DNA of 54,043 nucleotides from Chromera velia (lineage: Eukaryota): contig JAHBMJ010000230.1 of the NCBI GenBank assembly GCA_018398765.1, positions 1-54,043 on the forward strand. The letters are read 5' to 3'. Shown one piece after another: positions 2,389 through 36,802 of this stretch. The translations under genes were made by a program, and so were the position numbers. Numbering within the stretch: position 1 is the first letter of the stretch; each line of letters opens with the position of its first letter. The notes beneath the pieces were generated by a model. That model ran no database searches and was not told the origin of the DNA. It worked only from the letters and a program-made list of their open reading frames with translations.

Positions 2389-3771
2389 TCAAGCCCGTTG
2401 TTGATTACTGACCTCTCGTTGTAGAGCGGACCTTCCGCAGGCATGTCTCTGTCTGCGAATGAAAGAGAGAGGGATGGACAGCTGAGAGGCTGCCTCAAGC
2501 GTTCTCGGCTGCCTGGAGTAAAACGTTTCCTGAGCTCTCTCCTCCCCCATTCTTTTTTGTTCTCTCGCCCCACTGAAGTTCATCACGAGGCCAGTCATCA
2601 TCTGCGTGTTCACAAGAGGTTCTGCTGAAATGTCGGATCTTAAGAACATTTTCTTTTCTGCCAAAACCAGCGCCCTTCCCTCCCCTCCCTCCCTAGTCCT
2701 TCTTTCTCTCTTGAACATCAATCTGCACGGAAAGGCAAACAGCCCACAGTTCTCCCTCCCCTGCTGTCTGACTTTGTCTATTTTGCTCTTGAAACTCGCC
2801 TTCATGTACTCAATCGTGTGCTTCTTTGTCTTTGCCTCTACTAGAAAACAGAGGGACCCTTTCAACCCCTCCCACACGGAGTAGGCAAGAAGGTATCCGA
2901 GATTCGCGGCATCACAGCCAGGCTTTGAAAGACCTAACTGGAACTTTTGGTGCTCATCAGACCAACAAACGTCCAAGAACTCTGCAAATACATGTGAAAG
3001 AAAGTGGGGCGAGATGAAGTCGGCCCCCTTTTTATGCTCTGCAGTCGTTTTGACCTGCTGCTGCATTAGGTTGTGTCGGAAGTGGAAACTGGCGGGACCC
3101 TGGACTTTTTCACACTGGGACCGCAGGAAGAGACTTGTAAGCACCTCGCAGGCTGCGAGTGCTTCGCCGTACTTCACCAAGCCAGAAAAACCGACCTTCT
3201 CCCACTTTTTCCTTTCAGTCTGGACTATTGCTTCTGATGCCAGCCTGGCAAACGGGTGGGAATTCATCAACTGGGTCACCGACTTGGGGAATGCTGCAAC
3301 TGGGCGCCTGAACTCGTCGGGATCCCCTCCCGCTCCCTGCAGATCTGCCTGAGCAAGTGCCTGATCCGCATCGTCTTCTATATCAAACATCACGGAATCA
3401 ACTGGAGGCACAGCGGCTCGCCGTCTTCCTCCTCCACCACCTGCCCTTCTCGTCCTGCCCCCTCCCCTTCCCCCTCTGCCACGCCCTCTTGCAGGTTGCA
3501 CTGGCGGCTGCCCCGCAGCTTCAAGCGAATTTCGATCAGATGAGAGCGAGCGCCCTCGAGCTCCAAATGGATGATCAAGCTCCACATCATCACCAAAAAG
3601 CAGGGTTCCTGACGCGGACCCTGCGGAGCGCCGGGTCACAAAGGGCCCCTGCAAGTTGGAGAGCCCCTGCAGGTTGGAGAGCCCCTGCAGGTTGGAGAGC
3701 CCCTGGAGGTTGGAGAGCCCCTGCGGGTTGGAGAGACCCTGCAGGTTGGAGAGACCCTGCCGGCGAGCCAT
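2389..3771 (-). CDS. Hypothetical protein (~460 aa), probably transposon-borne: LQGLSN repeats, an RGG tract, then a globular helical/Cys-containing region
   Basis: A long open frame runs from the ATG at 3771 (MARRQGLSN...). I recognise no family motif. It may splice to the exon at 2114. Confidence 0.55.
   Translation of the reverse strand: MARRQGLSNLQGLSNPQGLSNLQGLSNLQGLSNLQGLSNLQGPFVTRRSAGSASGTLLFGDDVELDHPFGARGRSLSSDRNSLEAAGQPPVQPARGRGRGGRGGGRTRRAGGGGGRRRAAVPPVDSVMFDIEDDADQALAQADLQGAGGDPDEFRRPVAAFPKSVTQLMNSHPFARLASEAIVQTERKKWEKVGFSGLVKYGEALAACEVLTSLFLRSQCEKVQGPASFHFRHNLMQQQVKTTAEHKKGADFISPHFLSHVFAEFLDVCWSDEHQKFQLGLSKPGCDAANLGYLLAYSVWEGLKGSLCFLVEAKTKKHTIEYMKASFKSKIDKVRQQGRENCGLFAFPCRLMFKRERRTREGGEGRALVLAEKKMFLRSDISAEPLVNTQMMTGLVMNFSGAREQKRMGEERAQETFYSRQPRTLEAASQLSIPLSFIRRQRHACGRSALQREVSNQQRA
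3645..3760. repeat. 18-bp tandem repeat, ~6.5 copies (LQGLSN on the - strand)
   Basis: The unit ccctgcaggttggagagc is repeated in tandem. Confidence 0.9.
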
Positions 3772-4271
3772 CAGCAGGCGCGTGGGCAAGTAAAAGATGC
3801 AAAGACAGACGCAAAGCCCAACAGGAACCTTCGATCGATCGAAAGAAAACCAATCGTAGAGAAATCGGGACAGATCGATATTGCCGATCGACACTGAAGA
3901 TTGACCGTGATCAGAGAGCAGAGCTCAGTCTCACTTCAAGACACTCGACTGATCGATCGAAAAATCAATTTCAAATCCCAGGAGAGATCCACAAGCAATC
4001 TGAAAGCACCGATCTGTTTTGCTTGAACTGCACGCTTCTTTGTCGATCTGTATGCAGATCAAACAGATCGATCGACTGCTGACACAAAGCAATCACAGAC
4101 AGGCATGAATCGCGATTCAGATATCGATTTTGATGTCACATGCAGATCGATATTGATTTTTTTTTTTCACGCGCCGTTGGCGCACTACTTACCCACGCCC
4201 TCAATGGCGCGGCTAAAAAAATCGATGGCGCGGGATGATCGCGTGCCGCCCCGCGCCACCCGGCGCCGCGG

Positions 4272-7200
4272 ATGGACGTGTGGCTTGCTGGGATCGGGGA
4301 GGGCAAGGGTGGCATGCTCCTGCACCGCCTTCTTCAGCTCAGCAAACGCACGCGACTGTGCAGTCTTCTATTCGAAGGGGACGTTCCCCTGGAGGAGGAA
4401 TGTGAGAGGCCCCGCAAGAAACGAGAACCTCGGGACAAACCGGCGGAACCAATTGGCCAGTCCTAGAAACTGGCGCAGGGAAGTGCGGTCTGTGGGTTGT
4501 ATGAACTCAGTGAGCCCTTGCATTTTCTCATGGCTTGGTCTGACCCCCTTCTCATCAACCACCAACCCCAAAAATTTCGCTTCTGTCCGAAGCCATGCGC
4601 ATTTAGAGACCTTGACGTAGAGCTGGTGTTCCCTCAAAAGGGAAAGGACTTGGTTGATGTGCTCAATATGCTCCTCCGGAGTGCGGCTGAAAACAAGAAC
4701 ATCATCAATAAACACAACAACACACTTGTCAAGGAGTGGTCTAAGCACATCTGTGATGAGACGTATACTGATGGAAGGTGCGTTACACAAACCAAACGGC
4801 ATCACCAGCTATTCAAAACTGCCGTACCTTGTGACGAATGCCGTTTTCTCCTCGTCTCCTTCCCTGATCCTTGTCTGATGGAAGTATTGCCGTAAGTCCA
4901 GAGACGAAAAAAATTTTGTGCTGTGGAGGCGACTCAGCAGCTCCTCTGGATGAGGAATGGGGAATTTGTCGCGGATTGTGATCTTGTTAAGTCCCGTGAA
5001 GTCGATGCACATCCGTTGCATCCCGTCTGCCTTCTGCACAAACAGGACTAGCGCAGCATATGGACTTGTTGAAGGGCGGATATGCCCTTTCTTGAGGTAT
5101 GAGTCTAACTGCCATCTCAGTTTGTCAAGTTGACCGTATGACAGTCGGTAGGGTGCTCTCACAGGAGGAGAGTGCCCTGCCTTGAGCTTGATCTCACACT
5201 CGATCTTTCGGTGGGGCGGGAGACCCGGGAGCTCGTCTGGGAATCGATCAAAATGTTTCTCGAGAACCGGTCGGATGCTGGGTGGGACTTCTTTGCTCTG
5301 GAGGTGCTTTCGGAATCCCGTGTAGGTTGAAGAATTGATGGGATGGTCAAGAGGGAAAGATGAAAGGGGCGGTGGGTCTCCGGGATTACCGGCAGACTGC
5401 AGGGAATACACTCCCAACGTATCACTCACCCCCCCCTTCTGCACTGCTTCGAGGCGGAATAGATGCACACGGGAACTGGGTCTCTTCATCAGCCGACGGA
5501 GCTCTCTCTGGCTAAAGAAGTCCTCCCCCTCCCCTTCCGCCGGGTACTCCTCGCTGTCAAGCAGGAGCAAGTCTCTCCCGGTCGGCGACTTACACGCGGG
5601 GATCGTGAGGGCCTTCTCACGGTAATGTGGGATAGGAATATACTCCTCACAGAAGGGCATCCCCAACACAACATTGTAATCATCGTCCAGATCGACTACT
5701 GTGAGATTCAGAGGCGCGCTGAAGCCCTGGATGCAGAGGGGAAGGCCTTTGACCTCCTGGGAAATCGGAAGCTGCGGTCCCCCGTTCAACCCGCCCTTGC
5801 ATGCGGTCGGCTCATCAAGATCCCAGAGAGTGAAACGGTTCGACTCGGCAACGGAATGGGCAAGGAAGTTCGAATCTGCCCCAGGATCGTACAGACAGCG
5901 AACAGGGACCCCTGCCAACCAACCGTGGAAGCGGATGAGCTTCCCCGGTGCGCGGGAGGTCTTCGTGGAGTAGTATCTGCNNNNNNNNNNNTGACCGTAT
6001 GACAGTCGGTAGGGTGCTCTCACAGGAGGAGAGTGCCCTGCCTTGAGCTTGATCTCACACTCGATCTTTCGGTGGGGCGGGAGACCCGGGAGCTCGTCTG
6101 GGAATCGATCAAAATGTTTCTCGAGAACCGGTCGGATGCTGGGTGGGACTTCTTTGCTCTGGAGGTGCTTTCGGAATCCCGTGTAGGTTGAAGAATTGAT
6201 GGGATGGTCAAGAGGGAAAGATGAAAGGGGCGGTGGGTCTCCGGGATTACCGGCAGACTGCAGGGAATACACTCCCAACGTATCACTCACCCCCCCCTTC
6301 TGCACTGCTTCGAGGCGGAATAGATGCACACGGGAACTGGGTCTCTTCATCAGCCGACGGAGCTCTCTCTGGCTAAAGAAGTCCTCCCCCTCCCCTTCCG
6401 CCGGGTACTCCTCGCTGTCAAGCAGGAGCAAGTCTCTCCCGGTCGGCGACTTACACGCGGGGATCGTGAGGGCCTTCTCACGGTAATGTGGGATAGGAAT
6501 ATACTCCTCACAGAAGGGCATCCCCAACACAACATTGTAATCATCGTCCAGATCGACTACTGTGAGATTCAGAGGCGCGCTGAAGCCTTGTATGCAGAGG
6601 GGAAGGCCTTTGACCTCCTGGGAAATCGGAAGTTGCGGTCCCCCGTTCAACCCACCCTTGCATGCGGTCGGTTCATCGAGATTCCAGAGAGTGAAGCGGT
6701 TCGACTCGGCAACGGAATGGGCAAGGAAGTTCGAATCTGCCCCAGGATTGTACAGACAGCGAACAGGGACCCCTGCCAACCAACCGTGGAAGCGGATGAG
6801 CTTCCCCGGTGCGCAGGAGGTCTTCGTGGAGTAGTATCTGCAAAACGAGTAGCCATTCCGCATGCCTGCATTCTGATTCTGCTGTTGCGAGCCCCACAAC
6901 CCCGGCGGGAAGTCAGTGACTGGGCGTGCGGCAGGCTGCCACATCTGCTGGTGCTGCATGGGCGAAGGTGTGAGGCCTGAGGGCACCACCGGACCCTGAG
7001 GTTGCATGAGAGGGTTACTGACCCCCATGTGCCTGAAATTCCGATTGTCAGGACGGGGAGGGGCATTCCGATGCTGCTGTTGTTGCTGCTGAAATGACTG
7101 GTATGGGAAGTTTCGGTGCTGCTGGGGGAGGAGACGGTTATTAGACTTTGGGCACCTGTTCACCCGGTGGCCCTGTTGGTGGTAGTTGAAACATCTGTCT

Positions 7201-8027
7201 TCTCTGATGTGCCTCTGCACCTGCTCGTGCGACAGTGCATATAAGCGCGACAATCTATCTATTTCCATCGGTGCAAGCCCATCTGTGTTGCGCTGTTACA
7301 CCGCGTGCCCGCCTCCATCGGCGCGCTCGCCTCAGATCAATTGGTCTTCCTCGTCTGCCACTGTCATGACGGCCTCAAGTCCCGTGACTCCCCGACGCTT
7401 CACAGCGAGACGAATGTTAGTTGGCAATCCCCTGAGGTAGTCGTACAGTAGGTCGGCTTCTGTAATATCCTCAATCTGCATGGCCTTCTCTATGAAGTCA
7501 TCAGTGTACTTCTGTACTGTCTTGTTCCCACATTTCATCGCTTGGACTTCCTCTCGCAAACGTGTCTGAGCATTTGGGTCTTTGAACTTCTTCCCAATCC
7601 TCTCTTTAAAATTCTTCCACCCCTGGAACGGTGTTCGGAGGTTTTTAAGCTTGTACCACCTGTGCAGGGGACAGGATAGGTATTGACATGCTGCTTCGCA
7701 TTTCTCGGCTTCCAACGCTCGCGATAAGCGAAGCCATCTCTCGGTTATACGGAGCCAATCTAGGAGTTGTTTGCGGCTGCCTGCGTACGTAAACGGCTCT
7801 TTGGGTTTCAAATTTGACTTCACGGCCGCTGGAGGGCTGTTCTCCGCGGTGCCTTGTTGTGCTGTTACGATTGTCTGCTGGTGGTTGATCAGCTCTTGGT
7901 GTAGCTGTTGATTCTGTTGGGTTAACTGCCCGTTTTGGACCTGCAGTGCCTGGATCTCAGCTTGCTGCTGCTGTTGAGTTTGAATAAGCTGCTGAATGAG
8001 CTCAGAAGTGATAGAAGACGGGTCCAT
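4272..8027 (-). pseudogene. gag-pol polyprotein, a single frame with 4 premature stops
   Basis: The Gag ORF 8027-7332 is in frame with the ORF 7268-4809 across TGA 7332-7334 and TAA 7296-7298, leading into the GLAPMEID motif. The knuckle is degenerate (CFNYHQQGHRVNRC). The protease site is YDPGADSNF. TAG replaces the expected Trp codon at 4809-4811 (FE*LVMPFG) and at 4368-4370 (VPFE*). Confidence 0.9.
5131..6841. repeat. 850-bp direct duplication (5131-5980 / 5992-6841) flanking an N gap; probably a contig-overlap artefact
   Basis: Both copies begin tgaccgtatgacagtc and end gtagtatctgc. They abut the N run at 5981-5991 exactly. Confidence 0.9.
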
Positions 8028-8090
8028 CCTGCCCGCACTTCAAACAATGGTTGAGAGGCAGAGCGGGGTCTCCTTGAGGCAGAGGACCGG

Positions 8091-14427: not shown

Positions 14428-17328
14428 TCAGTACGCCCTCCAGTAGTACGATAACGGTGCATGCACCCCTTCAAGAAACTCATCCTTTCCTGCATGCAAC
14501 CGTCTCCTTGCCACAACTGCTGCTGCCGTGCCTCTTCCGTACGGGTCGGAAACCTGGTTCGACCGGGAACCGGAGGAACGGGGTGGAGACCCTGGCAAGG
14601 CAATACTTGGAGACCTTCGTGGACTCGGGTTGAACGGCTTTGGCGCGCTTCGTGCGTCTTCTCTAACGAGGTCGAGCAACCCGCTTTGCGGTGTTGGCTG
14701 CGGTGCGTAAGCAGAAAGTGGTTGTTCCCAATGCGGTTTCGGTATCGCACGTGAAGGCCATTCAGAGGTTTTCTCGTTCCGCGTGCGAGGCGGAGTTTCA
14801 CGCAAGGGAAAGTCCTCCCGGGGGTCGGATGGAGGAGAGACAATGTTAAAGTTTGACTTTGGGGGTTTTGGAATTGCGAACCAAACGAGAGGCCGCGCAA
14901 ATGCAGGTAGGACCGGAAGAGGTCGGTCCTTTGAGAAGTCTCTGGAAGTGATTTCTGCGAGAACGTCTGCTGCTGCCCCGAACAGCTCTGCGTAGGTCTC
15001 TGGAGTATGGCGTCTCCTGCTTCTGCTGTTAGAAGAATACTGTTTCTTTCCCCGCCCTCCCCTTAGAAGGTCCTGAAGACTCGGGAGGTCAAACGGCAGG
15101 TGCTTTGCCAAACTGTCGCTGCTGCCCATAGACGCCAGGGCAGCAGTGGGTGAGTGCCCTGAGGGTAGAGAAGAAGACGAACAAGTAGAGCAGTGGGAGG
15201 ACCGTCTCCTTCCTCCCCTGGCCCTGCTGGGGCTTCCTGATGGTGACAGTGGAAGGCCGCCTGCCCTGTTACTGTTAATCAGCTGCGAGGAGGAGGTGCC
15301 CTCTCTCCATTGCCCCTCCTCTCCGTACAGAACCGCACTCTCTGCCTGTCTGGCCAGGTCTCTGTGGAGCCATTGGCCTGTTGCAGGAAGAAAGGTGTAG
15401 GCACGGATGAGGAGCTCTGCGTTCTCAGCAACCCAGAGAACGGAGTCCCGGAGGATGCGGAGTTGCTCGTCTGTCATCGTGAAGTGCACACCTACCTGCA
15501 AGCAGAAAGAGAGGGTGAAACATGCGAAGTGTGGATGAGGCGGGAAGAAGTGAGAGGCCAGTCACGAGCACAAATGAACGAGGGGCATCTATCTGTTAAA
15601 GCCATACAAGAAAGGAACAATGTCGTCCATTCAAACCCAAGCTTGTTCGGGTCTTCCAGCAAGGGCTCTCTGTCCCCATTACCCGATCTTGAGAATCAGA
15701 ATTGACGATCTAAGATGAACACAAAGACCGTTGTATGAATCACCCCCAGACTTATTGTCGCGTTTCACACCGTTTGCATACATATGTGTTCATACCCTCT
15801 TTCGCTCGATGCAAGCAAGCCTCGATCATGCACCCACCCACCCGAGTCACTCCGGGTTTCAGAATTCCGAGCCCCCCGAGGTCCACAGCGTCTGCTAGGG
15901 CGTCTGCTTGCTGATCTGGGACCTCGAGAAGGTCAAGAAGGTAAGGTCCTGCGCATGCGCAACCCGCACGCGACTGAATACCGAACACATCGTTCAACAA
16001 CGCACACACGAGTTGGTGGTGCACGAAAAGAACCTGGCTGCCTCCTCCTCTCGCGTTGTCACCTCGTTGTTTCCCCCCATTGGATGCCCATGGGGCAAGG
16101 ATAAGAAAAGAGATGATGCCTAGACGCCCAACACCCACACCCCCAGCCTCCCTATCCATGCCGTCATTCTTCATCTTTCTGCCAGAAGAGCCAGACGACC
16201 GTCTGACAGGGTGGCAAGAGGCAAGGGAGCGACTGGAGGGGCCAATCAATCGGATCTTCGGGTGGTCCCTCCAGGCCTTCAAGAGGTAATTTGCCTGCGC
16301 GTCCTCTCTCGCCCTCATCGAACACCCCCCGCCTCTCTCCCCCCTCAGTCCCAAGTGCACTGAGCACACGAGACCCAACCGGACTGCCCCGATGATATCT
16401 GGAGTTCCCGCCTCCTCGCGCTCTTCTTCCTCCTGCACGGAAACATCACACACACACGAAGTGAAAAGAGAGACGGTGACAAGAGAAGACGGAAGCATCA
16501 AACAGTGCTTCGGGAAGTGGACTTCCGCAAGAATGTCCCTAGCAGGCTTGAAGCACCCGCAACTCAACGTACCAGAATGAATCTCTGCCCAGTCCTGGTC
16601 ACCATCGAGACTGTCCCCCCCCCCGGGGCAGCTGGTGTCTCGTCACTCAGGAGCCACCGCCGAACGACCAGGACTCCCGGCGTTCCGGGTCCCCCCAGCA
16701 TTTTGTGGGGGGAGAAGAACGCAGCGTCTGCTCCGCTGTCGCTCTCGAAAGCGCGGCTAATCAGATGGATCGGCCTCATGCCGGGGTCTGCAGAAGGGGC
16801 AGGAGGGTGGTGGAGGCCCTGAAGAATGCCGGGGTCCGCCACCTCGACAGGCGTGTGCGCGGCTGCTGCAGCGAAGTCCCAGCAGACCAGGGCCCCGTGG
16901 TTGTGTGCTAGCTCGGTCAGGGCTCGGACATCCTGCTCGATCCCCGAGACGTTTGAGACGGCAGTGAGCAGACAAACAGGTAGCACGTGGGATGCAGGTT
17001 CTTCCGCCTGCAGACAGATCAGAAAGAGACATGAGCATAGGATGAGTGGATGTCAGAAGTCTCTCAGAGCATGGTGGAATGGTGGGAAGCGTGCAAGAGG
17101 GAAGGTTGTGGGAGGACGCATGTAGAAAAAGATTTGAGAGCCTGCACGAATTCATCCGAGTGCTCTGAAGGGAAGCTGAGTCCTCCAGAATCACAGTCTG
17201 CCTTATTTCGTTATTGTCGCAGACAAAGTTGCACACTACCTCTCGTTCATTGCATCTACGCTGAAGAAAGAAGACGCTGATCAAAGAAACAGGAAACATA
17301 CACACACACACACACACACACACATAGG

Positions 17329-22414: not shown

Positions 22415-24853
22415 GTGCAGAGCATTCCAGCGTTTCTCTTCTCTTGGCCAAACACCGGGCGCGACGCCACTCTGTCCTCCCAACCCACCACCGAGGATGA
22501 TGGTCCGGACATGGAGTTGGAGGGGGGGGAGGAGGGACCAGAGGGAAGGGAGGGGTTCCGATCCATTGAAGGGAGTGACTCCACTGCGATGCATCCCCTC
22601 GCTCGCCGGAGTGGAAGTATTTGACAAGGTGGGGGGCAGAGGGATGAGGTGGGGGACATGTACAAAATGGAAAAGGATGACTCAGATGCCGAGTTCTTCG
22701 CACAGAGCAGGCAGCGCAAGCCTAACCGAGCCAAAAAGCGGAAGAGGGGCAGACACCTGCCCAACGCCCTAAAATTCGATGCCTCCCTTCGTGGATTCTC
22801 CGAGGAAGTTCCTTCCAAGAGAAAAACTAGAAAGACATCCACACAGAAGGGAGCAGCAGCAGCAGCCGCTGGTGTGAGAAAGCCCCGCACAGCATACGGT
22901 AAAAACGCCACAGACCTCCTTATCCCTTCAGCCCAACACAAGAAGAGCCTCATGAGTGTCTCCTCATCCATCAAACATCCGAAGATCATGGTCACAGCAA
23001 AAGAGTTAGCAACAGGGCACACTCAAAACTTTGCTTCTCTGCCCCGATGCGGCGAGGCTCTCGGCATCAACCCAGGAACAATCAGCAGAGCATTAAAGTA
23101 CCAAGTAGGGTTGAACAAGAGCACAAACGAAACTGGGAGGTTCGCCTTCACTAAGATAGTGTTTCCTGCCGATGATCAGCAGCCCAGGGAGGGTGCAGCT
23201 GCTGCTGTGTCGTCTGCCGCAGGTGCTGCGTCCGCCAACCTAACACAGAGACGAGTGGCGAGAGGCTGAAAAGCCTTTTATCCCGTCGCTCTAGCTAAGG
23301 TCTCGACTACCCGAATGTCTAAAGTGGCCCCACGAGGAGGCAGGGGAGGGAAGGGCCTTGGTCGGGGGAGGGGACGCGGGAGAGGGGACCGGGGGAGGAG
23401 GGCCCGCATGTCTTCCACCAAGCCCCGAGAGGCATCTGTGATAGAAGAGGAGGAGGACGAAGGGGACAACCTGGAAAGGGAGGAGGCTGCAGAGGGGTAC
23501 CAGTATGACGCAGACGTGGATCCATCACAATGGATGGACGCTCCAGATGAGGGGGGGGAGGGAGATTAGGAGAATGAGGACGACTACTCCTACTACCATC
23601 CGGAGGGAGATTGGGAGAATGAAGACGACTACTCTTACTACCATCCGGAGGGAGATTGAGAGAATGAGGACGGCTACTCCTACTACCATCCGGAGGGAGA
23701 TTGGGAGAATGAGCGACTACTCCTACTACTATCCGGAGGGAGATTGGGAGAATGAGGATGGCTACTCCTACTACCATCCGGAGGGAGATTGGGAGAATGA
23801 GGACGAGTACTCCTACTACCATCCGGGTCCTTGGGGACCCCCTCCGGGCTATTTTAGAGACCATCCCATGCACGCACACCGAGGCTTCGGCCCTTCCTAC
23901 TACCTCCACCGCTACTCACCATACAACCAGCCCCCTTACCACCCCCCAACATCTACCTCAAACGACAACCCCTACCAGCAACAGCAAGGGCACAGAGACG
24001 GATACACAAGCAACGACAACACAGCAGGAGGCAGAGGCACCGCCCCCAACACGAAGTTCCGCTTCTCTTGGCCAAACACCGAGCGCAACCCCACTCTGTC
24101 CTCCCAACCCACCACCCAAAACCTCCCCGCGTCCACCCTTAAGACTGCTGAACAGCTCCTTCCCCCCCCCCAGCCCCCTCTCTCTGCATGTAGCAGCGCA
24201 ATTAGCTTTCCTCCTGTGCCCTCCACCCGCCCCTCTCTCATCCCCTAGGCTCAGACTAACACACTGAAAGACGCAGAAGGCTTTGCCATTCCCGACTCCC
24301 TACCTCACATGCGGCCGCCTTCACACACACAAACTGTGCACACGCCTGAGAGCAGCTGCCCTGTGACCCTGAAGAACTCTTCCCTTCAGTCCCACGAGGT
24401 CCCGGTGTCCTCCCAGATCCCCAAGGTGGAGTTGGACTCCGTCTCCCAGGCTCAGGCTCTCACTCTCACGTCCACTAAGCAGCATCTTGTCCCCTCAGGC
24501 TCCTCCTGCCCTTCCGGCACCCAGGCCTCCAACGGATCCCTCCTTGCTCGCCTTCCGTTCGTCGAGCAGAGCTCTTCTGCCGAGTCCCTCCGTGTGCCCA
24601 CTCTCGCTTCCAAGCCAGCCGCCTGCAACCTATCCACCTCCATCCTCAAGACTGGCAAAACCTGTCCCGAGGGTACCAACGACCAGGTTCATCGCACCTG
24701 CAATGTGACCCTCAAGAGGTCTTTCTTTGAGTGCGACGAGATCCCCGTGTCCTCCCAGATCTCCAAGAACGAGGAAAAAGAGGAGACGCAATACTAGAAA
24801 TTCTAAAGGGGAAGGAAAAACGACAGTTGGCGCCAAAAGAAGCAGGAAAACGG
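22415..24853 (+). pseudogene. Long degenerate ORF with a NUMOD1-like HTH, an RGG tract and a 15-aa acidic/Tyr tandem repeat
   Basis: ORFs at 22415, 22649 and 23315 are in one frame, separated by single stops (22622-22624, 23267-23269, 23567-23569). A 2-nt deletion at ~23714 shifts the frame, and further stops fall at 24246-24248 and 24795-24797. The HTH reads NFASLPRCGEALGINPGTISRALKY...GRFAF. Confidence 0.7.
23555..23826 (+). repeat. 45-bp tandem repeat x6 (PEGDWENEDDYSYYH)
   Basis: The unit is ccggagggagattgggagaatgaggacgactactcctactaccat. Confidence 0.95.
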
Positions 24854-29230: not shown

Positions 29231-29643
29231 TAGGCAGACAGAGTCCGTTTTCCTTTTTTACTATAATCTCCCTCTCCTTTCCTTTCCTTTCTGTCGTTTC
29301 CTTCCTTCCCTGCCCAAATGCAAAGTCCGGCAAAGTCTCTCCCGACCGTTTCTCGTCTCTTTTTCTTTTCACCAGTATGTCTCCGCCCTTCGAACGAACG
29401 AACTTTTGTTTCTCTGCATGCTCTCGTCAGGAGGAGAAAGAACAAAAAAATAGAGTTCCATCCAGCGAAAGGTAATAGAAGAACAATTGAGCGAAAGATC
29501 GAGGGAGAAGAGAGATCCACCATCCATCCATCCCTCTAACCATCCACTTGTACAAATAGGGTTTAATACTTAATCAACAGAAAGGGATCAACACACCTGT
29601 CGTTGTCACCGTTCTTCCTGCACCAGTTGTACTGGTGCTATTT

Positions 29644-29841
29644 CGTATGCCGGGGCCCGCCGGGTTCTTTTTTGCCCCCCCAAAGCGGCGCTTCGCCGCC
29701 GAAAACTCGACTGAACCAACCAAGTAGCCTCCAGAGCTGAAAGTTGGAGGATTTCTTACCTATCCCACTCCTATCAATTCTATGGAACAGAATCTCCAGA
29801 CTTCAACTATAGCTAGTGCACCAGCAGTTTCCTGTTTGCCA
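29644..29841 (+). repeat. Left inverted repeat
   Basis: It matches the reverse complement of 35334-35542. Identical blocks include atgccggggcccgc, gcctccagagctgaaagtt and atcaattctatggaacagaat. Confidence 0.92.
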
Positions 29842-29885
29842 GTTTATTTTTTGAAAAAAATTCATGTCCGCTCCCTTCCGTCTCC

Positions 29886-31485
29886 ATGGCTGCTGAAAGT
29901 GTGGAGGCAGCCATCGCGGCAGTGAGGCAGTGCAGAAGCATATTTCTAGATGAGGGACCCATCACGGCCCTAATTTTAGCGTTGGAAAGAAAGTCGGCCC
30001 CCCTTGAAGAGAAGAAAAACGGAGTCCTTAAATTGTTTGACTCGCTCCAATCGAAGATGACCAACTCTTTCTCTATTTTGTTCAAAAATCTGCTCTCGTC
30101 GACAATGCGGAGGCCTGAGTACGGGGCCAGGGAGGCCCCAAAAGAAATCCCAGGGCACTGGGTTACGAGGGGCTGGGCCTTTTTTGACTTGTGCAAGGAC
30201 GAATTCAATGAATTTCACGCTTCATTGAATTGGTTGTCCTACAGATTGCGTGTGTTAAACGGCCTTAAGTACTTCGCGTTGAAGTACCGAGTCCTCTTGC
30301 TTGCTACTTACCAGACGGACATTCTGATAGGGTTCCTCGGACCTCACTACGTGTGGGGGAGGGTCGTTCTGGGACTGGGGGAAGTAGATGCGTCAGCCGA
30401 GCAGGACGACATTCCGAAAGGTGATTCAATACATCTTTCTCCCCCAATGAAGCAGTGCTGGTCACACTGCGGAGGGGTGTTTGGACCGGGAAAATGGAAG
30501 AATAGGTGCATGGATGCATGAGTGCATGAACAGATGGATGGACCCTGCCTGCCTGCCTGTACTTGCCTGCCTGCCTCTCTGCCCAGCTGCCCGCCTGCCT
30601 GCCTGCCTGCCTTGCGTGCTTTGCCTGCCTGCCTGCCTGCCTTGCCTTGCCAGGCTTGCCTACCTGCCTGCCTGCCTGCCTTGCCTGTCTGCCTTGCCTG
30701 CCTACCTTGCCTGCCTACCTTGTCTGCCTGCCTTGTCTGCCTGCCTGTCTGCCGGGCTGTTCGCCTGCCTGCCTGCCTGGTGATGGATGGAGGGATAAAT
30801 GACTTGATGGTGTATGTGCGCCTCTGTGAGTGCAGAGGTGATTTGTGGAGTGGATCCCGTATTCGACATGACGGACGAGAGGATGCGTGCCTTGCTGACG
30901 ACGAACTACAAGCCCGAGGAGGAGGTGACCTCGGAGGAAGAAGGAGCGGAGGGAGGAGGGGGGAAGAAGAGAAAGCTGAAGAAAAGGCAGCCCCAAAATG
31001 ATGCGAAGAGGCGAAAGGCAGTGGAGCGCCTCCTCAAGATGGAGGCCGTCCAATTCAGGACAGCCATAGAGCGCCCCTGCGTTGTCCATCTGAGGGGAAA
31101 GGCGATCCAGGGTGTGCTGCCTGGGTTGCAGGTCGATGCCGTCTTTAACCGATGGTTCGGAGTGGAGGGGGGTGTAGCAAGACGGCTCCTTCGTCCTTCC
31201 ATTTACATGTCGTTCAGCAGCAGCAGGGTGGGGTTGGCGTCCCTTCACCTGGTGTATGATGTCCCAGACAACCCTGCAGCAATGGAGCGGGTAACGTTTG
31301 TGGCCTCTTTTTCTTCCTTTGCTGCACCAGCACCTGCAGCAGCGGCTGCAGCAGCGGCTGCAGCAGGAGCAGATGTCCTTCAGATGGCTTGGAGTGGGCC
31401 GCCACTCCCTTTTCAGCCTTCGGCGCCCACAGAGGATTCGGCCGATGACGGACAGGATAAAGTCTACTTTGATTTTGATGTTTGA
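29886..31485 (+). CDS. Two-exon hypothetical protein (~420 aa), convergent partner of the RAG1-like transposase
   Basis: ORFs at 29886-~30505 and ~30831-31485 are separated by a (GCCT)n-filled intron; the exact junction is uncertain. It has a KKRKLKKR NLS-like patch and an acidic C-terminus (EDSADDGQDKVYFDFDV). There are no internal stops. Confidence 0.75.
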
Positions 31486-31903
31486 GTCATTGAGGTTTGA
31501 GGTTTGAGGTTTGATTTTAAATAAAAAACCGTTCATTTAAATTCTATTTTAAATTTTAATTTATGCTTAAAGTATACTTATAATTTAAATTCTTTTTGAT
31601 CGAAGTATAAAATTTAAACTGAGAAATTCTAGTTTGAAATATAGTTGACGGTTAATGTATTTCATTTAAATTATAGTTTATATGCTTTATATATATACTT
31701 TATTTATTGATTTATAAATTCTAGTTAAAAATATAGTTGACGATTAATATCAATGCTATGCTATGCTACGTAAATATACGTCACCTGAATTCTATTTTGA
31801 ATTATGGTTTATAGTTAACTAGATACTTAATCTACTTAATTTAAATTAGAGTTTAAATGACTTAAAATTTAATGCTTAAAATTTATATGCTATTAATTTT
31901 TTT

Positions 31904-33107
31904 TTACATGTTTTCATCTTGGTCCTGAACGTCTTCAACGAAATCAAGCTCAACAGATATGTCTAAATCGGCATCGGAATCAGCCTCACTCTCTGACGAG
32001 AGGTCTTTCTTCTCACCTGGTGTAAGCATTAGTTCAAGGCGGGAAGCGGTCCGCGCCTCTGTCCTTCTGTCGGCGGTACTGGAAGCTGAAAAGGTCTGCA
32101 AGAGATGGCCAGTCACTAGCCGACGGCCCATGTCCAGGTCTCTTCCCTTCCACTTTTCCGTTGGGGCCTTTGTGCCAAACGAACCATGACTTGAGGCGCC
32201 TTTTGATGAAAAGGCTTCCTTGATGACCCAGTTGAAGGCTTCATGAGCCTGCATATTAAAGACCCTCCCATAAGACCCCCTCGTTCTCATCCAATACCAG
32301 GCATGCTCAAGCCTGTGGAGGGTCCCATTCCACTTTACCCCCGTATGCTTATGAATCTGCAGAAAAAGATCTTTCAACTGCCACAACGCAGCTGCGTAGT
32401 TTCCTGCCCCTTTCATATCCAAATCTGTTGTCATACGAAGAACATGTAGGCACCGAAACAACGATGTCTGCATGATCCTCTCTTTTGTGTCCGTCATGTG
32501 GCACATGCGGAACATGTCTTTGTGCTGAAGGGACAGCTTCACAACAGTCCGCCCCTGCAGACTCTTCTTTGGCAAGACGAACTTTGGGGCAGTTGGCTTC
32601 TTCAAGAGCTCCGGATTGACTACCAAAATCAGTGTGTCTGTGTTGATCAGGATGCTGTCCCTTGAAAGAGAGTTCATCTTGTGCAGGACTTTCCGTCCGC
32701 ACTGCTTGCCCTCCTCGTTTGGCTTGAGAGGGCAGTTGCACTCATGACGGCAAAGGGGCTGGATCTTGGCTTTCTTTGTCTCCTCCCCCCCTTTCCTTTT
32801 CGCTTCCTCCTCTTCCTCACAGGGGGGGGGAATTTCGTCCCCCTCTTCTGCATTCAGCTCAGCCTCACTCGCAGAGGACCCCCCCCCTTGCCTGCATTCC
32901 TGACACATGCAGGCACTTCTCCACATGGTCGTGCGAAAACGGCGAATGCAGATGAATTCTGCCGCACGCATCGCAAGGTGGAGGACATCGGGCTAGACCT
33001 CTTTGATTCATGAGGGCCACCGCCACGGCCCCACGCTGCCTTTGCAGACCCATCGGTAGCAATCTGTCGAGTGCTTTCCAGAACATGCGCAGCCTGCATT
33101 GAACTGA

Positions 33108-33147
<40 letters not shown>

Positions 33148-33153
33148 ACATAT

Positions 33154-33214
<61 letters not shown>

Positions 33215-33851
33215 CCCACTTTTGCATCGTAGCTTTGATATGTCCTCGTCGGGGCTGAGTCAGGGGGTGGAGGGTCTAAGTAGGACCTGGTTAGTCTTCG
33301 GGGGTTGAAATTGGCATCCTTCGAAACCCACTTCTTGAGCCCCTTGAGGGTCTGCATCTCTTTGTCATTCTGAAAACAGTTGCCGCAGGACGCAGCGCAA
33401 CTCACCCCTGCATATCCCTTTCCCTTGAGTTCAGCGCTCTGGTCTACAGTCCCGTAGAATTCTATTTGCATGCAGAAAGAGAAAAAGAAACAGGGGAATT
33501 ATTATGGGATAGAGTGAGAGAGAGAAAGAGGGGAAGGGAGCGGAAGGGAGGGGTGGGGAGACCAACCTTGACAGTTTTTCCTGCGTGTGGGCCTTTTTGA
33601 AGAACGATCCCGGTCGTCGAGAGAAGGGTCCCCCCAGTCTTGATCTCTAGGGCCTCGAAGAGGGAGGTGATGGTGTTGACATTCTCCTGCCAATTAGCAA
33701 TGCCGAGGCAGCAAGAGAGATCAACTCTGTACAGTGCCTCATTTAGGATACAGAGGGGCCGCATCATGAGTAAAACACACCCGCCCCCTGCACATACAGA
33801 CACACACACACACACACACACACACATGTGCACACACACACACACATACAT

Positions 33852-33895
<44 letters not shown>

Positions 33896-35252
33896 GGAGA
33901 GACCAACCGTCAGCCAGGCCAGACCCAGAGGAGCCATCGATGGAGACGACTCACTCTTGGCCGATGACTCCTTCTTCTGAGAGGTCCGCGTTGGTAGAGA
34001 AGTATTCCCCCCCCCACTCATCTTCCATCAGAAGCCGTATGTAGTCTGCAGGATTGACTGTGAATGCAGTAAAATATTTCCCCCTTCCCTCCTTGTCTTT
34101 CTCCTTCAATTTTTTTCCCACCTCCCCAACCAACTTGGAGCACGGTCGGAAGAACCCCTGCTCACGAAGCTTCTTTTGCAAGTCACACAGGGGCCCAAAC
34201 ATATCCTTGGGGTCTGGGACACCCTCGAACCCCAGAAACCTTCTCAGCCTCCCCAACTTTGTCCGGGTGAGGCCATTGCGCAGACAATAGTCGAGCCAAT
34301 CGGCTAGAGTTCTCTTCCATTTCTTGTGGAGCGAGAAATTCAGACTCTTTGCCTGCTTGCTCTTGATCTTGCACATCTTGTTCAACCCCCTCACTCTTTT
34401 AAGTCTCTTTTTGATGTGAAGGGGCATGTCTGCTCTGTTTTCCCTCTCTGTGTCTACAAAACGATACCCCCCCTGCTGTGTGTTCTCTGCAATCTTCTCG
34501 GCCAATTCCATTTCTTTGATGGGGGAGGCCTTGCACGCGATCGAAGCAAAGGCCGATGTGAGGCCTTCCGCACGCTCTTCTGCGGGCAGGCCTTTCAGCC
34601 CATACAGGTCATCTACTAGCCCAACCACTGCGGTCGTCTTGTCGGCCAATTTTTCTGCACCCTTCCCTGACCTCTCATAGTCTCGGGGGTCAAGGATGGG
34701 CGCTCCATGGAAGGACGGGGCGTCCTGACAACTGTTGAGCTTCTCAATCGTGTTGGCTCGATTTCGGCGGCCGTTCTCGTAGCTGCCGTTAGCAGCGTCG
34801 GGGTTCTCCTCGGGAATAGGAGGCAAGGGAGCTGCAGAAGAAAGCGCATCTGCGGCCTTTTTGTACTTATCATGAAGGGGCCAAGACGGGGCATCAGATG
34901 CAAATCGCTTCACAACGTGCCCCCAATACATCCCCGGCTGCTCACTCATCCGTCTCTTCCTTTTATACTGCTCTTGCTGGTAGGCATCTCGCTCCCGCTG
35001 TTGCTGTTCGGTCCACACTGCAGTGAAAGGCGGCATTTCTCTGTCCCTATAGGCCTTGATGGCCTCTAGCCCTGCTATGTGGCGGGGCCTTTCCAACGCA
35101 GGAGACGAACCGCACATGGTTGAGACAAGGTTGGTACGGTACTCTCCTAAGGGTACATGTCTGTCCTTCAGACCTTCTGCTTCTGCTCTTGTAGGTCTCC
35201 CTCCCACTCCTTTACACCCCTTCAAAGATTTGGGCGGTGGGAGCGGTGGCAT
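31904..35252 (-). pseudogene. RAG1-core/Transib-like DDE transposase, 4 exons (35252-33908, 33787-33567, 33465-33220, 33103-31904)
   Basis: First Asp: VVSIDGSSG (33936-33938). Second Asp and ZnC2: FYGTVDQSAELKGKGYAGVSCAASCGNC (D at 33442-33444). Then KG...PDVLHLAMRAAEF. ZnH2 and Glu: TLHRLEHAWYWMRTRGSYGRVFNMQAHEAFN (E at 32240-32242). Lesions are stops at 33951-33953, 33008-33010 and 32993-32995, plus an acceptor AG>AA change at 33466. Confidence 0.88.
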
Positions 35253-35333
35253 CGCGGCTTGCAACACGGCTCAGTCTGGAACTGAGCTCAAACAACAGTG
35301 AACAACACCTAAGAAATAAAAGTCTATACACAT

Positions 35334-35542
35334 TGCCAAAGAGGAAACTGCTAGTGCAGAGGCTATAGGTTGAGTCTGCAAATTCTGTTCCATAGAATTG
35401 ATGAGAGTGGGATGGGTGAGAAATTCCCTAACTTTCAGCTCTGGAGGCCACTTGGTTAGTTCAGTTGAGTTTTTGGCAGCGAAGCGCCGCCTACATATGG
35501 GCGAGGGGGAGCAAAAAGGAACCCTGCGGGCCCCGGCATGCG
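35334..35542 (-). repeat. Right inverted repeat
   Basis: It is the reverse complement of 29644-29841, with mostly transition mismatches and one ~10-nt indel. Confidence 0.92.
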
Positions 35543-36802
35543 TTCTTCTCCTCACCCCTAACTGGATAGATCTGCCTGGTCAATGGATGGATGGATGTTT
35601 TGTTTGTTTGTTTGTTTATGCATGTGCATGGTTGGACGCTGACGGGTGGGAGGGAGGGAGCATGCTGCGCGATGATCATGCAATGCATCACTTCATTCAG
35701 TGCATGTCGACGAGGCATGCAAATCACTTCATAAAAACAGTTATGGGGACTGCACCGGAGTTATTTAAGCACCGTGCCTAGGCACCGTGCAAAGCCACGG
35801 TGCCTTTGGTGGTAAACTTTGCTGCAAATGTACTGTAATCGTGTGCAAACATGCACGTTACACTCATAAATTTGTCATTCATATACCCTGCATGACGTAA
35901 CTTTTTTTTTAGCCTTTTAAAATTGTGTTTCAATTTTGACTCTCTGTCACTGCATGTCTATCAGTCAGATTCACAGTGATGGATGCAGACTGTGAACTAG
36001 ACTGTCAAACTACAGCTACTACCTACAGTCAGTGAGTGAACGACTCGATCAGTGGTATTAGTAGTATTCAAAGTTAGCACTGCTAGTCTCAGGCCAGTAA
36101 GTCATATATAATGATGATTGACAAAAATCAAGATTTCATCCATCATCATGATTATTATATATATACGCCATCGCCATCGGCTCATAGTCTAGCCTAGCGC
36201 TAGGCTTAGCGTCTAACGTTCGGTAAGTTAACACATAATTCTCAAATTGTATGTTCAAAGTCTTGCTTAGTACAAGTTTTAACAAGTTTTTCAAGTTATG
36301 TATGTTGTTTATGTGTGTAGATGTATAAACTTTTCTATAGAAACTTTTTAGCTAGGTAGTCTTCTAACTTCAAGGTAGAACTCAATCTAAAATTAATGAT
36401 GCTTCAACAAAAGAACTTATAACTAGACAGTCTAGACTCATAATTGAATTCTCATATGTGATTGAATCTAGACTTATCTAGACTAGTACTAAGACTACCC
36501 TTGCATGGGGCAACTATATACAGGTGTAACAAGAAATAAATTTATTCAAGAATCAAGATCTGATTCACCTGAAAACTATTTGTGAAAGCGTACAAAACAA
36601 GCAAAAGTAAACAAAAGTGTCTTGATCAAGTTTATGCTAACAACAACGCAATGAAACCTAGAATGAAACCAAAGACGGCTGAAAGCCGACACGTCGCAAC
36701 AAAGGAACCGCTTCAAATCGATCGGGGCACTACTACAGGCCCAGCTGCAAGCAATACTCTTTCTCAGCTCCGGCATGTTAGCGCTTATTTACAGTCAGGC
36801 GG

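What the first reader, a model, noticed from the sequence alone, without database searches (positions are those of the whole stretch)
29644..35542. Two-gene, tail-to-tail transposon (ProtoRAG/MuDR-like architecture) bounded by 200-bp inverted repeats
Seen in sequence: the RAG1-like gene (-) and a second gene (+) converge on an AT-rich spacer. Each starts within ~45-80 bp of one copy of the same ~200-bp inverted repeat. Established knowledge: ProtoRAG and the vertebrate RAG locus have convergent RAG1/RAG2; maize MuDR drives two convergent genes from promoters in ~200-bp TIRs; classical Transib has one gene and short CAC-initiated TIRs. Inference: this may be an undescribed RAG1-like transposon family that recruited a different accessory gene, an independent parallel to RAG2 capture.
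Basis: partly seen in the sequence, partly recalled or inferred. Interest (0 to 1): 0.92.

Follow-up and report, generated by a model that had tools for sequence, protein, structure and literature searches.

The report
Algal two-gene RAG1-like transposon, non-RAG2 partner
A dead copy of a multi-copy jumping element in the alga Chromera velia carries a likely distant relative of the antibody-gene cutter RAG1 facing a second gene with no detectable likeness to RAG2, between two long inverted ends that differ by one DNA turn, which suggests that RAG1-type enzymes took on helper genes more than once.

Summary
Confirmed, with corrections. Window 29644-35542 is one copy of a 5.9-kb DNA transposon family of Chromera velia. 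It has ~200-bp inverted ends (85% alike), an empty paralogous site, and two spliced convergent genes. Five of six other annotated partner copies have a transposase model within two gene numbers. This copy's transposase (1003 aa) is dead: three stops and a damaged splice site. Its partner (394 aa) is open, and the family's partner transcript is spliced in a run guessed to be RNA.

New here: the two ends differ by a family-wide 11-bp spacer (10 vs 21), the offset of the RAG 12/23 rule.

The RAG1/Transib link rests on the D-D-CxxC-H-HxxxH-E motif order and a borderline language-model match (0.90). Pfam, PDB and folding gave nothing, so only the wider CACTA-Mirage-Chapaev-Transib clade is reasonably firm. 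The partner shows no kelch or PHD features; its role as a helper is inferred and binding is untested. No relative outside Chromera was found. This scan noted RAG1-like elements with non-RAG2 partners on other DNA before. New variant; interest 0.58.

The parts
29644..35542 (.). Whole element, 5899 bp
   Evidence: Joint 29644->35647 in contigs of X1, X2, X5; the empty-site tail aligns without gaps to the joined flanks only with a 2-nt duplication removed, 5 mismatches of 42 against 19-25 for 0, 1, 3-8
29642..29643 (+). Left copy of the 2-bp target duplication (TT); alternative register TTC 29642-29644 with the left end one base shorter
35543..35544 (+). Right copy of the 2-bp target duplication (TT)
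29644..29841 (+). Left terminal inverted repeat, 198 nt; starts CG; outer block 1-31, 10-nt spacer, inner block starting with a short palindrome
   Evidence: left-end contigs of other copies lie on it without gaps
35334..35542 (-). Right terminal inverted repeat, 209 nt; same blocks, 21-nt spacer (11 nt longer)
   Evidence: right-end contigs in X1 and X2 carry the same extra letters (tables 4 and 7)
29886..30420 (+). Partner gene exon 1 (aa 1-178; predicted helical at low confidence)
   Evidence: splice joint 30418->30834 GT..AG in X5; P0011 identical to aa 58-394
30836..31485 (+). Partner gene exon 2 (aa 179-394; acidic patch, basic run KKRKLKKR at 222-229, short predicted beta run, Ala-rich tail)
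31486..31903 (.). AT-rich (80%) convergent terminator spacer with AATAAA on each strand (31520 plus, 31699 minus) and decayed internal repeats
   Evidence: no X5 depth in bin 31440-31683 while DNA runs cover it
33908..35252 (-). Transposase exon 1 (aa 1-448): N-terminal region, first catalytic Asp D439 (33938) in IDGSSG; premature TGA at aa 434 (33953-33951)
   Evidence: paralogs P0003, P0004, P0016, P0025 read through this position
33567..33787 (-). Transposase exon 2 (aa 449-522)
   Evidence: spliced the same way in annotated paralogs P0003 and P0004
33220..33465 (-). Transposase exon 3 (aa 523-604): second Asp D530, CxxC at 549-552; its acceptor reads CAA in this copy
31904..33103 (-). Transposase exon 4 (aa 605-1003): stops at aa 636 and 641, H646 in DVLH, Cys-rich/acidic insert (about 670-745), HxxxH 867-871, E892, acidic tail
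   Evidence: P0016 and P0025 read through both stop positions; Cys pattern of the insert kept in the second family P0024

Best explanation
This is a dead copy of a multi-copy, two-gene DNA transposon of Chromera velia whose spliced transposase likely belongs to the RAG1-fold CACTA-Mirage-Chapaev-Transib clade and whose fixed second gene likely encodes a nuclear helper of transposition that shows no detectable likeness to RAG2. Shown: ends, empty site, 2-bp (or 3-bp) duplication, several copies, linkage and convergence of the two genes, splicing of the partner, inactivation of this copy's transposase, and an 11-bp end asymmetry shared by other copies. Inferred: the D439/D530/E892 triad with a C2H2 zinc site cuts at both ends and inserts with a 2-nt stagger; the 10/21 spacers place an inner binding block one helical turn apart at the two ends, so that a left end pairs with a right end as in the 12/23 rule; the ~200-bp repeats double as promoters for both genes, as in maize MuDR; the partner is made together with the transposase and helps excision, insertion or their regulation, in the manner of MURB or a non-kelch stand-in for RAG2. 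Copies are then killed by C-to-T decay.
For: Empty site and end definition. Pieces inside the element have depth 180-321 in X1 and 85-139 in X2 against 21-31 and 17.5 for unique flank pieces (table 8; a rough sign of several copies, not a copy number). Annotated models: transposase at 10 loci, partner at 7, adjacent within two gene numbers at 6 of the 7 including this copy. A 958-nt X2 contig at depth 87 that differs from the window joins partner 3' end, spacer and transposase 3' end. Motifs D, D, CxxC, H, HxxxH, E in CMCT order (definition in PMC12730594, passages). Language-model neighbours: top three at 0.90, the third a cluster with RAG1_RNase_H in 38% of members, and 8 of the 10 best family-bearing hits share that family or clan. 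Asymmetric TIRs mark subgroup I Transib and RAGL elements (PMC9435367, whole text; PMC10462144, passages). Partner: open frame, spliced in X5, basic nuclear-signal-like run, placed at the same short distance from its repeat as the transposase.
Against: No Pfam, NCBIfam, PHROG or PDB sequence match for either protein. The 0.90 score is reached by 4-10% of shuffled proteins and only 151-154 of 256 features are shared, under the 170 typical of the same family. Both AlphaFold models failed (pLDDT 34). The 2-bp duplication comes from one empty site, which is a diverged paralog (7 differences in 85 nt), not an allele. D2-to-E spacing is 362 aa against 206-214 (Transib) and 253 (RAG1), and the serine of SxxCxxC is absent (PMC1131882, passages). 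The only distant relative, P0024, has K at the E892 column and lacks both His of HxxxH, so it does not confirm these residues; it may itself be decayed. Four of 9 other transposase loci had no partner model found. None of 11 annotated models of the family covers the whole spliced protein, so no intact copy is shown. Nothing tests the partner's function.
Confidence: 0.6

Rival explanations
1. Same element, but the partner is an anti-silencing factor that protects the element from the host's cytosine-modification defence and has no part in the cutting complex.
For: Strong C-to-T/G-to-A decay of this copy: 38 of 51 and 14 of 17 amino-acid differences from paralog majorities fit such a change; A>G 69 and T>C 67 against C>T 27 and G>A 17 in X1 contigs. 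CMCT elements of fungi carry TET/JBP genes read as anti-silencing cargo (PMC12730594, abstract and passages). Weak HECT-like lead for the partner (0.87-0.89).
Against: No dioxygenase, chromodomain or other chromatin domain found; the HECT scores are below the 0.9 bar with recognition 2126 (<2300); the copies did decay.
Confidence: 0.2
2. The transposase is a separate CMCT lineage (nearer CACTA/EnSpm, Mirage, Plavaka or ESTA) and not a Transib/RAG1 relative in the narrow sense, so the likeness to ProtoRAG is one of layout only. This can hold together with either role of the partner.
For: 2-3-bp duplication is the CMC range (2-4 bp; bioRxiv 10.64898/2026.08.26.747230, section 14; Plavaka 2-3 bp and ESTA TA). 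The motifs used are shared by the whole clade. No CAC end, no SxxCxxC serine, long symmetric-looking TIR body. DUF1280 scores 0.88, close behind.
Against: No CACTA, Plavaka or Chapaev family is among the listed language-model neighbours, RAG1_RNase_H is. True Transibs with 2- and 3-bp duplications and non-C ends are reported. The 11-bp end asymmetry fits Transib/RAGL.
Confidence: 0.4
3. The partner is passive cargo, or a decayed inverted duplicate of the transposase's own N-terminal part, transcribed only because the repeat is a promoter.
For: No function-bearing domain found. P0013 aa 36-127 aligns weakly with transposase aa 220-328 (27% over 102 columns, hhalign E 0.22; 54 and 32 of 1000 shuffles reach the score).
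Against: That match is absent for 7 of 9 pairs tried and at DNA level (82 of 200 shuffles reach it). The partner is a two-exon 394-aa open frame kept in at least 7 copies and spliced in X5.
Confidence: 0.2
4. Two copies of a short dispersed repeat landed by chance around two unrelated genes.
For: None found.
Against: One empty site lacks the whole 5.9 kb; left and right repeats differ in a fixed way and each is joined to its own gene in contigs of other copies; gene-number adjacency at 5 other loci.
Confidence: 0.02

Closest known systems
RAGL / ProtoRAG transposons (BbeRAGL, PflRAGL-A; AanRAGL of Aureococcus) - PMC9435367, PMC10462144, PMC7204232
   Same: Two genes between TIRs, convergent as in most RAGL; DDE transposase of about 1000 aa with CxxC and paired His; left and right ends differ by about one helical turn (11 bp here; 4/13 spacers in AanRAGL, 10 bp in PflRAGL-A, 12/23 in RSS).
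   Different: Second gene shows no kelch or PHD features; duplication 2 (or 3) bp, not 5; ends start CG, no heptamer; TIRs about 200 bp; D2-E spacing 362 aa with a Cys-rich insert; no sequence match to RAG1 profiles.
Transib superfamily (Kapitonov and Jurka 2005, PMC1131882; Nozomi-related elements, bioRxiv 10.64898/2026.08.26.747230)
   Same: Motif order around the triad; asymmetric TIRs as in subgroup I; some members also make 2-3-bp duplications and have non-canonical ends.
   Different: Classical members are 3-4 kb with one ~700-aa transposase, 5-bp duplications, RSS-like ends, D2-E of 206-214 aa and SxxCxxC; this element has a fixed second gene and introns.
CMCT clade (EnSpm/CACTA, Mirage, Chapaev, Transib, Plavaka, ESTA, Lanisha; Kojima 2025, PMC12730594)
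   Same: [quoted passage not shown]
   Different: Ends are CG..CG, where most members have CA..TG; no profile match to a named lineage; partner unlike TET/JBP.
Maize MuDR (PMC3440606, passages)
   Same: Two convergent spliced genes, each starting just inside a ~200-bp TIR; second gene of unknown function.
   Different: MuDR's transposase is of the Mutator superfamily with 9-bp duplications (recalled); promoter activity of the TIRs is shown for MuDR and untested here.

Membership tests
TIR DNA transposon | Terminal inverted repeats bounding the unit | tested here: met
TIR DNA transposon | Empty site, target duplication and several insertion sites | tested here: met
   One empty paralogous site with a 2-nt duplication; at least two other junctions in contigs; 10 annotated transposase loci
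CMCT clade | D, D, E triad with C(2)C and H(3-4)H between second D and E | tested here: met
   D439, D530, C549/C552, H646, H867/H871, E892 read from the spliced model; by motif reading, not by a significant profile match; P0024 lacks the His pair and E
CMCT clade | Duplication of 2-5 bp | tested here: met
   2 bp, or 3 bp in the asymmetric register; one site only
CMCT clade | CA..TG termini (most members) | tested here: not met
   Ends read CG(C/T)ATG..CATGCG; other junction consensuses end in CGC
Transib | 5-bp target duplication | tested here: not met
   TATTT vs TTCTT at the ends; 23 of 42 mismatches for a 5-nt duplication; exceptions are in print
Transib | CAC-initiated RSS-like heptamer | tested here: not met
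Transib | Asymmetric TIR spacers (subgroup I) | tested here: met
   10 vs 21 nt, kept in other copies; one indel of this size can also be chance
Transib | SxxCxxC motif and D2-E spacing of 206-214 aa (253 in RAG1) | tested here: not met
   Ala three residues before C549; spacing 362 aa (reference values)
Transib | Sequence or fold match to Transib/RAG1 core | tested here: inconclusive
   No Pfam or PDB hit; language-model neighbours RAG1_RNase_H at 0.90; model of pLDDT 34 unusable
Transib | Placement inside Transib/RAG1 in a transposase tree | not testable with these tools
   No reference transposase sequence was returned by any search (one search found Chromera proteins only)
RAGL / ProtoRAG | Convergent two-gene layout inside TIRs | tested here: met
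RAGL / ProtoRAG | Second gene is a six-bladed kelch propeller, with or without PHD | tested here: not met
   No kelch match in Pfam, PDB or language-model search; 4 Cys; GG only in one Gly run and at 290; low-confidence model mostly helical
RAGL / ProtoRAG | Second protein binds the transposase and aids cleavage | not tested
   The complex predictor was not available
Mutator / MuDR | Mutator-type transposase and 9-bp duplication (recalled) | tested here: not met
   No MULE family in Pfam; duplication 2-3 bp
Mutator / MuDR | Promoters inside the long TIRs | not testable with these tools
   Only contigs were available, which cannot show RNA starts

The most novel reading that the evidence does not exclude
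An alveolate RAG1-fold transposase that independently recruited a non-kelch obligate subunit and pairs its two ends by a 10/21 spacer rule: a second, separate invention of the RAG1-RAG2 design with its own 12/23-like rule and a different insertion stagger.
Probability: 0.13. Interest if true: 0.88.

Novelty: new variant of a known kind. Interest (0 to 1): 0.58.

Why it matters
How a one-gene Transib-type transposase came to need a partner and to pair unequal ends is a central question about the origin of V(D)J recombination. All two-gene examples in the papers read here use a RAG2-type partner. This element joins a convergent layout and an 11-bp end asymmetry to a partner with no RAG2 features, in an alveolate. 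It gives a direct test of whether partner dependence and one-turn asymmetry evolve repeatedly. It also extends the CMCT clade to an orphan lineage, and shows C-to-T decay of repeats in Chromera, biased to CA and CG. If the partner is only regulatory or passive, it is one more two-gene transposon family.

Tried and rejected
No whole genome was held, so copies were studied through public-run contigs and annotated proteins. No listed holder run is on record as RNA; X5 is a guess, supported by one splice joint. Pfam, NCBIfam, PHROGs and PDB sequence searches: nothing significant for either protein. HMMER search of 1.84 billion representatives with a 678-position profile that lacked aa 583-674 and everything after aa 872: 4 hits, all Chromera. 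The partner was searched once, with exon 1, among proteins of 313-2000 aa only; shorter relatives and relatives of exon 2 were not sought. AlphaFold of the partner and of transposase aa 305-582 failed (pLDDT 34); Foldseek on the latter gave no match at E<=0.001 and means nothing; the partner model was not fold-searched. The complex predictor was not available, so binding is open. TIR pattern scans: 0 in viral contigs; 5 in metagenomes, all GC-rich loci with no match beyond 21-35 nt and no gene match, rejected as chance. Protein scans: viral contigs none; prokaryote genomes one 22-aa match, rejected as chance. Organism-B run X12 laid nothing on the left end, which the tool says can be false. 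Partner as a duplicate of the transposase N-terminus: weak, not upheld. A frameshift or extra intron before DVLH was rejected because an X5 contig has no gap there and paralogs read through. A 'CG' duplication was rejected by the empty-site length. Literature: 0 papers for Transib+Chromera and Chromera+RAG1; 3 for Chromera velia + DNA transposons, none on such an element by listing; no 'Chromera' in the supplements of PMC9435367 and PMC12730594 as held; no Transib/CACTA/TIR term in 12 of 16 supplements of the genome paper. Repbase and subscription papers were not searched; bioRxiv supplements were closed (Table S2 of the Nozomi preprint not seen).
Full report
Observation. The inverted repeats are real and far beyond chance: left 29644-29841, right 35334-35542, 169 of 198 aligned bases matched, score 265 against a maximum of 108 in 300 random window pairs. 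A plus-strand gene starts 45 nt inside the left repeat and a minus-strand gene 82 nt inside the right one. They end on a 418-bp spacer of 80% AT with one AATAAA per strand.

Host. Homology searches returned proteins named as Chromera velia, 71-93% identical by best alignment to the query exons, and one annotated model, P0011, is identical to residues 58-394 of the partner. The window is therefore C. velia nuclear DNA. No genome was available.

Gene models. The partner has two exons (29886-30420, 30836-31485), 394 aa, open. The same GT..AG joint is seen in contigs of run X5, which is guessed to be RNA. The transposase has four exons (35252-33908, 33787-33567, 33465-33220, 33103-31904), 1003 aa, with stops at aa 434, 636 and 641 and an intron-2 acceptor reading CAA. 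Paralogs read through all three stop positions. This copy is dead. None of 11 annotated models of the family covers the full spliced protein, so an intact copy is not shown. An X5 contig covers 32185-33100 without gaps and has 428 more letters that do not lie on the adjacent DNA, which fits splicing but does not show it.

It is a mobile unit. Contigs of X1, X2 and X5 join 29644 to the right flank, skipping the element. The letters after 29644 in that record align without gaps to the joined flanks with 5 mismatches in 42 if two bases are taken as duplicated, and with 19-25 mismatches for 0, 1 or 3-8. The element is 29644-35542 with a TT duplication. A 3-bp TTC duplication with a left end one base shorter fits the same length, but symmetric CG ends favour 2 bp. 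The empty site is a paralog (7 differences in 85 nt), and it is the only one, so an indel in it could mislead. Still, the five bases on each side (TATTT, TTCTT) are not a duplication. At least two other junctions appear as loose ends. Pieces inside the element have about 5-15 times the depth of unique flank pieces in X1 and X2; the tool warns that this is no copy number.

The genes travel together. Partner models were found at 7 loci (Cvel_7980, 13850, 14657, 15946 = this copy, 17831, 20085, 24136) and transposase models at 10 (this copy, 13851, 14658, 17830, 20086, 24138, 10385, 12500/12501, 34178, 3375). Five of the six other partner loci have a transposase within two gene numbers. Four of the nine other transposase loci had no partner found, and one partner had no transposase found. 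Both searches were limited by length windows and 90% clusters, and gene numbers give neither orientation nor distance. Independent of annotation, a 958-nt X2 contig at depth 87, differing from the window, joins both 3' ends across the spacer, and other contigs join each repeat to its own gene.

End asymmetry. Both repeats have a 31-nt outer block, a spacer and an inner block. The spacer is 10 nt on the left and 21 nt on the right. Right-end contigs of X1 and X2 carry the extra letters, and the left-end contigs listed lie without gaps, so the difference is a family trait. Eleven bases is the offset between RSS12 and RSS23. AanRAGL has 4/13 spacers and subgroup I Transibs have asymmetric TIRs (PMC9435367, whole text); PflRAGL-A has a 10-bp asymmetry (PMC10462144, passages). 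One fixed indel of this size may also be chance, and there is no heptamer.

What kind of transposase. The spliced protein has D439 (IDGSSG), D530, C549xxC552, H646 (DVLH), H867xxxH871 and E892. [quoted passage not shown] The language-model search with P0025, a model that lacks exons 2-3, put two unnamed eukaryotic clusters and a RAG1_RNase_H cluster (38% of members) at 0.90, and 8 of the 10 best family-bearing hits shared that family or clan. The score is borderline and the shared-feature counts are low. Profile and PDB searches found nothing, and the fold failed. Against Transib proper: a 2-bp duplication, CG ends, no SxxCxxC serine, and D2-E spacing of 362 aa against 206-214 and 253 (PMC1131882, passages). 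In mitigation, Transibs with 2- and 3-bp duplications and non-C ends are reported (bioRxiv 10.64898/2026.08.26.747230, abstract and sections 14 and 20). The extra length holds a Cys-rich, acidic insert whose cysteines are kept in a second Chromera family, P0024, 30% identical. It lies between DVLH and HxxxH, by my recalled alignment the region where RAG1 binds RAG2; a role in partner binding is speculation. P0024 has K for E892 and lacks the His pair, which does not confirm those residues. A search of 1.84 billion representatives found only Chromera proteins. My odds: CMCT clade 0.85; Transib/RAG1 branch about 0.5.

The partner. It has no match in Pfam, NCBIfam, PHROGs or the PDB. The language model gives HECT clusters at 0.87-0.89, below the bar, and no kelch. 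It has four cysteines, no repeated GG pattern and a basic run at 222-229. A low-confidence model is mostly helical. RAG2-like proteins are six-bladed kelch propellers with a GG motif in each blade (PMC7204232, passages), so it fails that test. A weak likeness to transposase aa 220-328 did not hold up. Its fixed place, open frame, splicing and start just inside the repeat argue for a kept function. The layout matches MuDR, with two convergent genes and promoters in ~215-bp TIRs (PMC3440606, passages). I take a helper of transposition or its regulation as most likely (0.6, of which a direct RAG2-like subunit is perhaps a quarter), anti-silencing 0.2 and passive 0.2. Binding could not be tested.

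Decay. Against paralog majorities, 38 of 51 amino-acid differences in the transposase and 14 of 17 in the partner fit a C-to-T or G-to-A change in this copy (transposase contexts CA 15, CG 11, CC 10, CT 2). Among 28 listed nucleotide differences, a subset of the rows that the tool chose to show, the contexts were CA 13, CG 8, CT 4, CC 3. This suggests methylation-driven or RIP-like erosion; the cause is not shown.

Novelty. Searches for Transib or RAG1 with Chromera found no paper, and the genome paper's passages and 12 of its 16 supplements name no such element. Repbase could not be checked. Two-gene RAGL elements, extra-gene CMCT elements and the MuDR layout are all in print, so this is a new variant: a convergent, end-asymmetric CMCT element with an orphan partner, a 2-bp duplication and CG ends in an alveolate. 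Earlier notes of this scan describe RAG1-like elements with chromodomain, histone or other partners in other genomes; I did not test them, and neither protein matched an earlier finding by sequence. Interest 0.58.

Noticed in passing
window 4809-8039 (-): Ty3/gypsy-like retrotransposon remnant: gag (PF03732, E 1e-9), aspartyl protease and the start of RT. An 850-bp segment is duplicated at 99% around an 11-N gap at 5981-5991, probably an assembly artefact.
   Followed up: partly
window 29241-29643 and 35543-35874: The target of the insertion is itself repeated: an uninterrupted paralog about 92% alike is in X1 and X2 and is well covered in the RNA-guessed run X5. No clear reading frame across the rejoined flanks.
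   Followed up: partly
P0024 (Cvel_15884): A second, 30% identical transposase family in Chromera with the same Cys-rich insert; its flanks and any partner gene could not be read.
   Followed up: partly
window 29644-35542: C-to-T/G-to-A decay biased to CA and CG, seldom CT, in this copy; a lead for a RIP-like or non-CG methylation process in Chromera.
   Followed up: partly
window 29864-29866: An upstream out-of-frame ATG before the partner start exists only in this copy; the laid contigs have G at 29864.
   Followed up: partly
window 31539-31860: Decayed ~125-bp direct repeat and shorter repeats in the AT-rich spacer; other copies lack 41 bp at 31788-31828.
   Followed up: no
window 14431-16642 (-): Exons of a host gene with a weak aminotransferase class V match (PF00266, E 8e-4).
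   Followed up: no
window 906-1901, 3624-3785, 23536-23871: Tandem arrays of 54-bp, 18-bp and 45-bp units; the 18-bp array lies inside a 511-aa open frame (2389-3924, minus) with no Pfam match.
   Followed up: no
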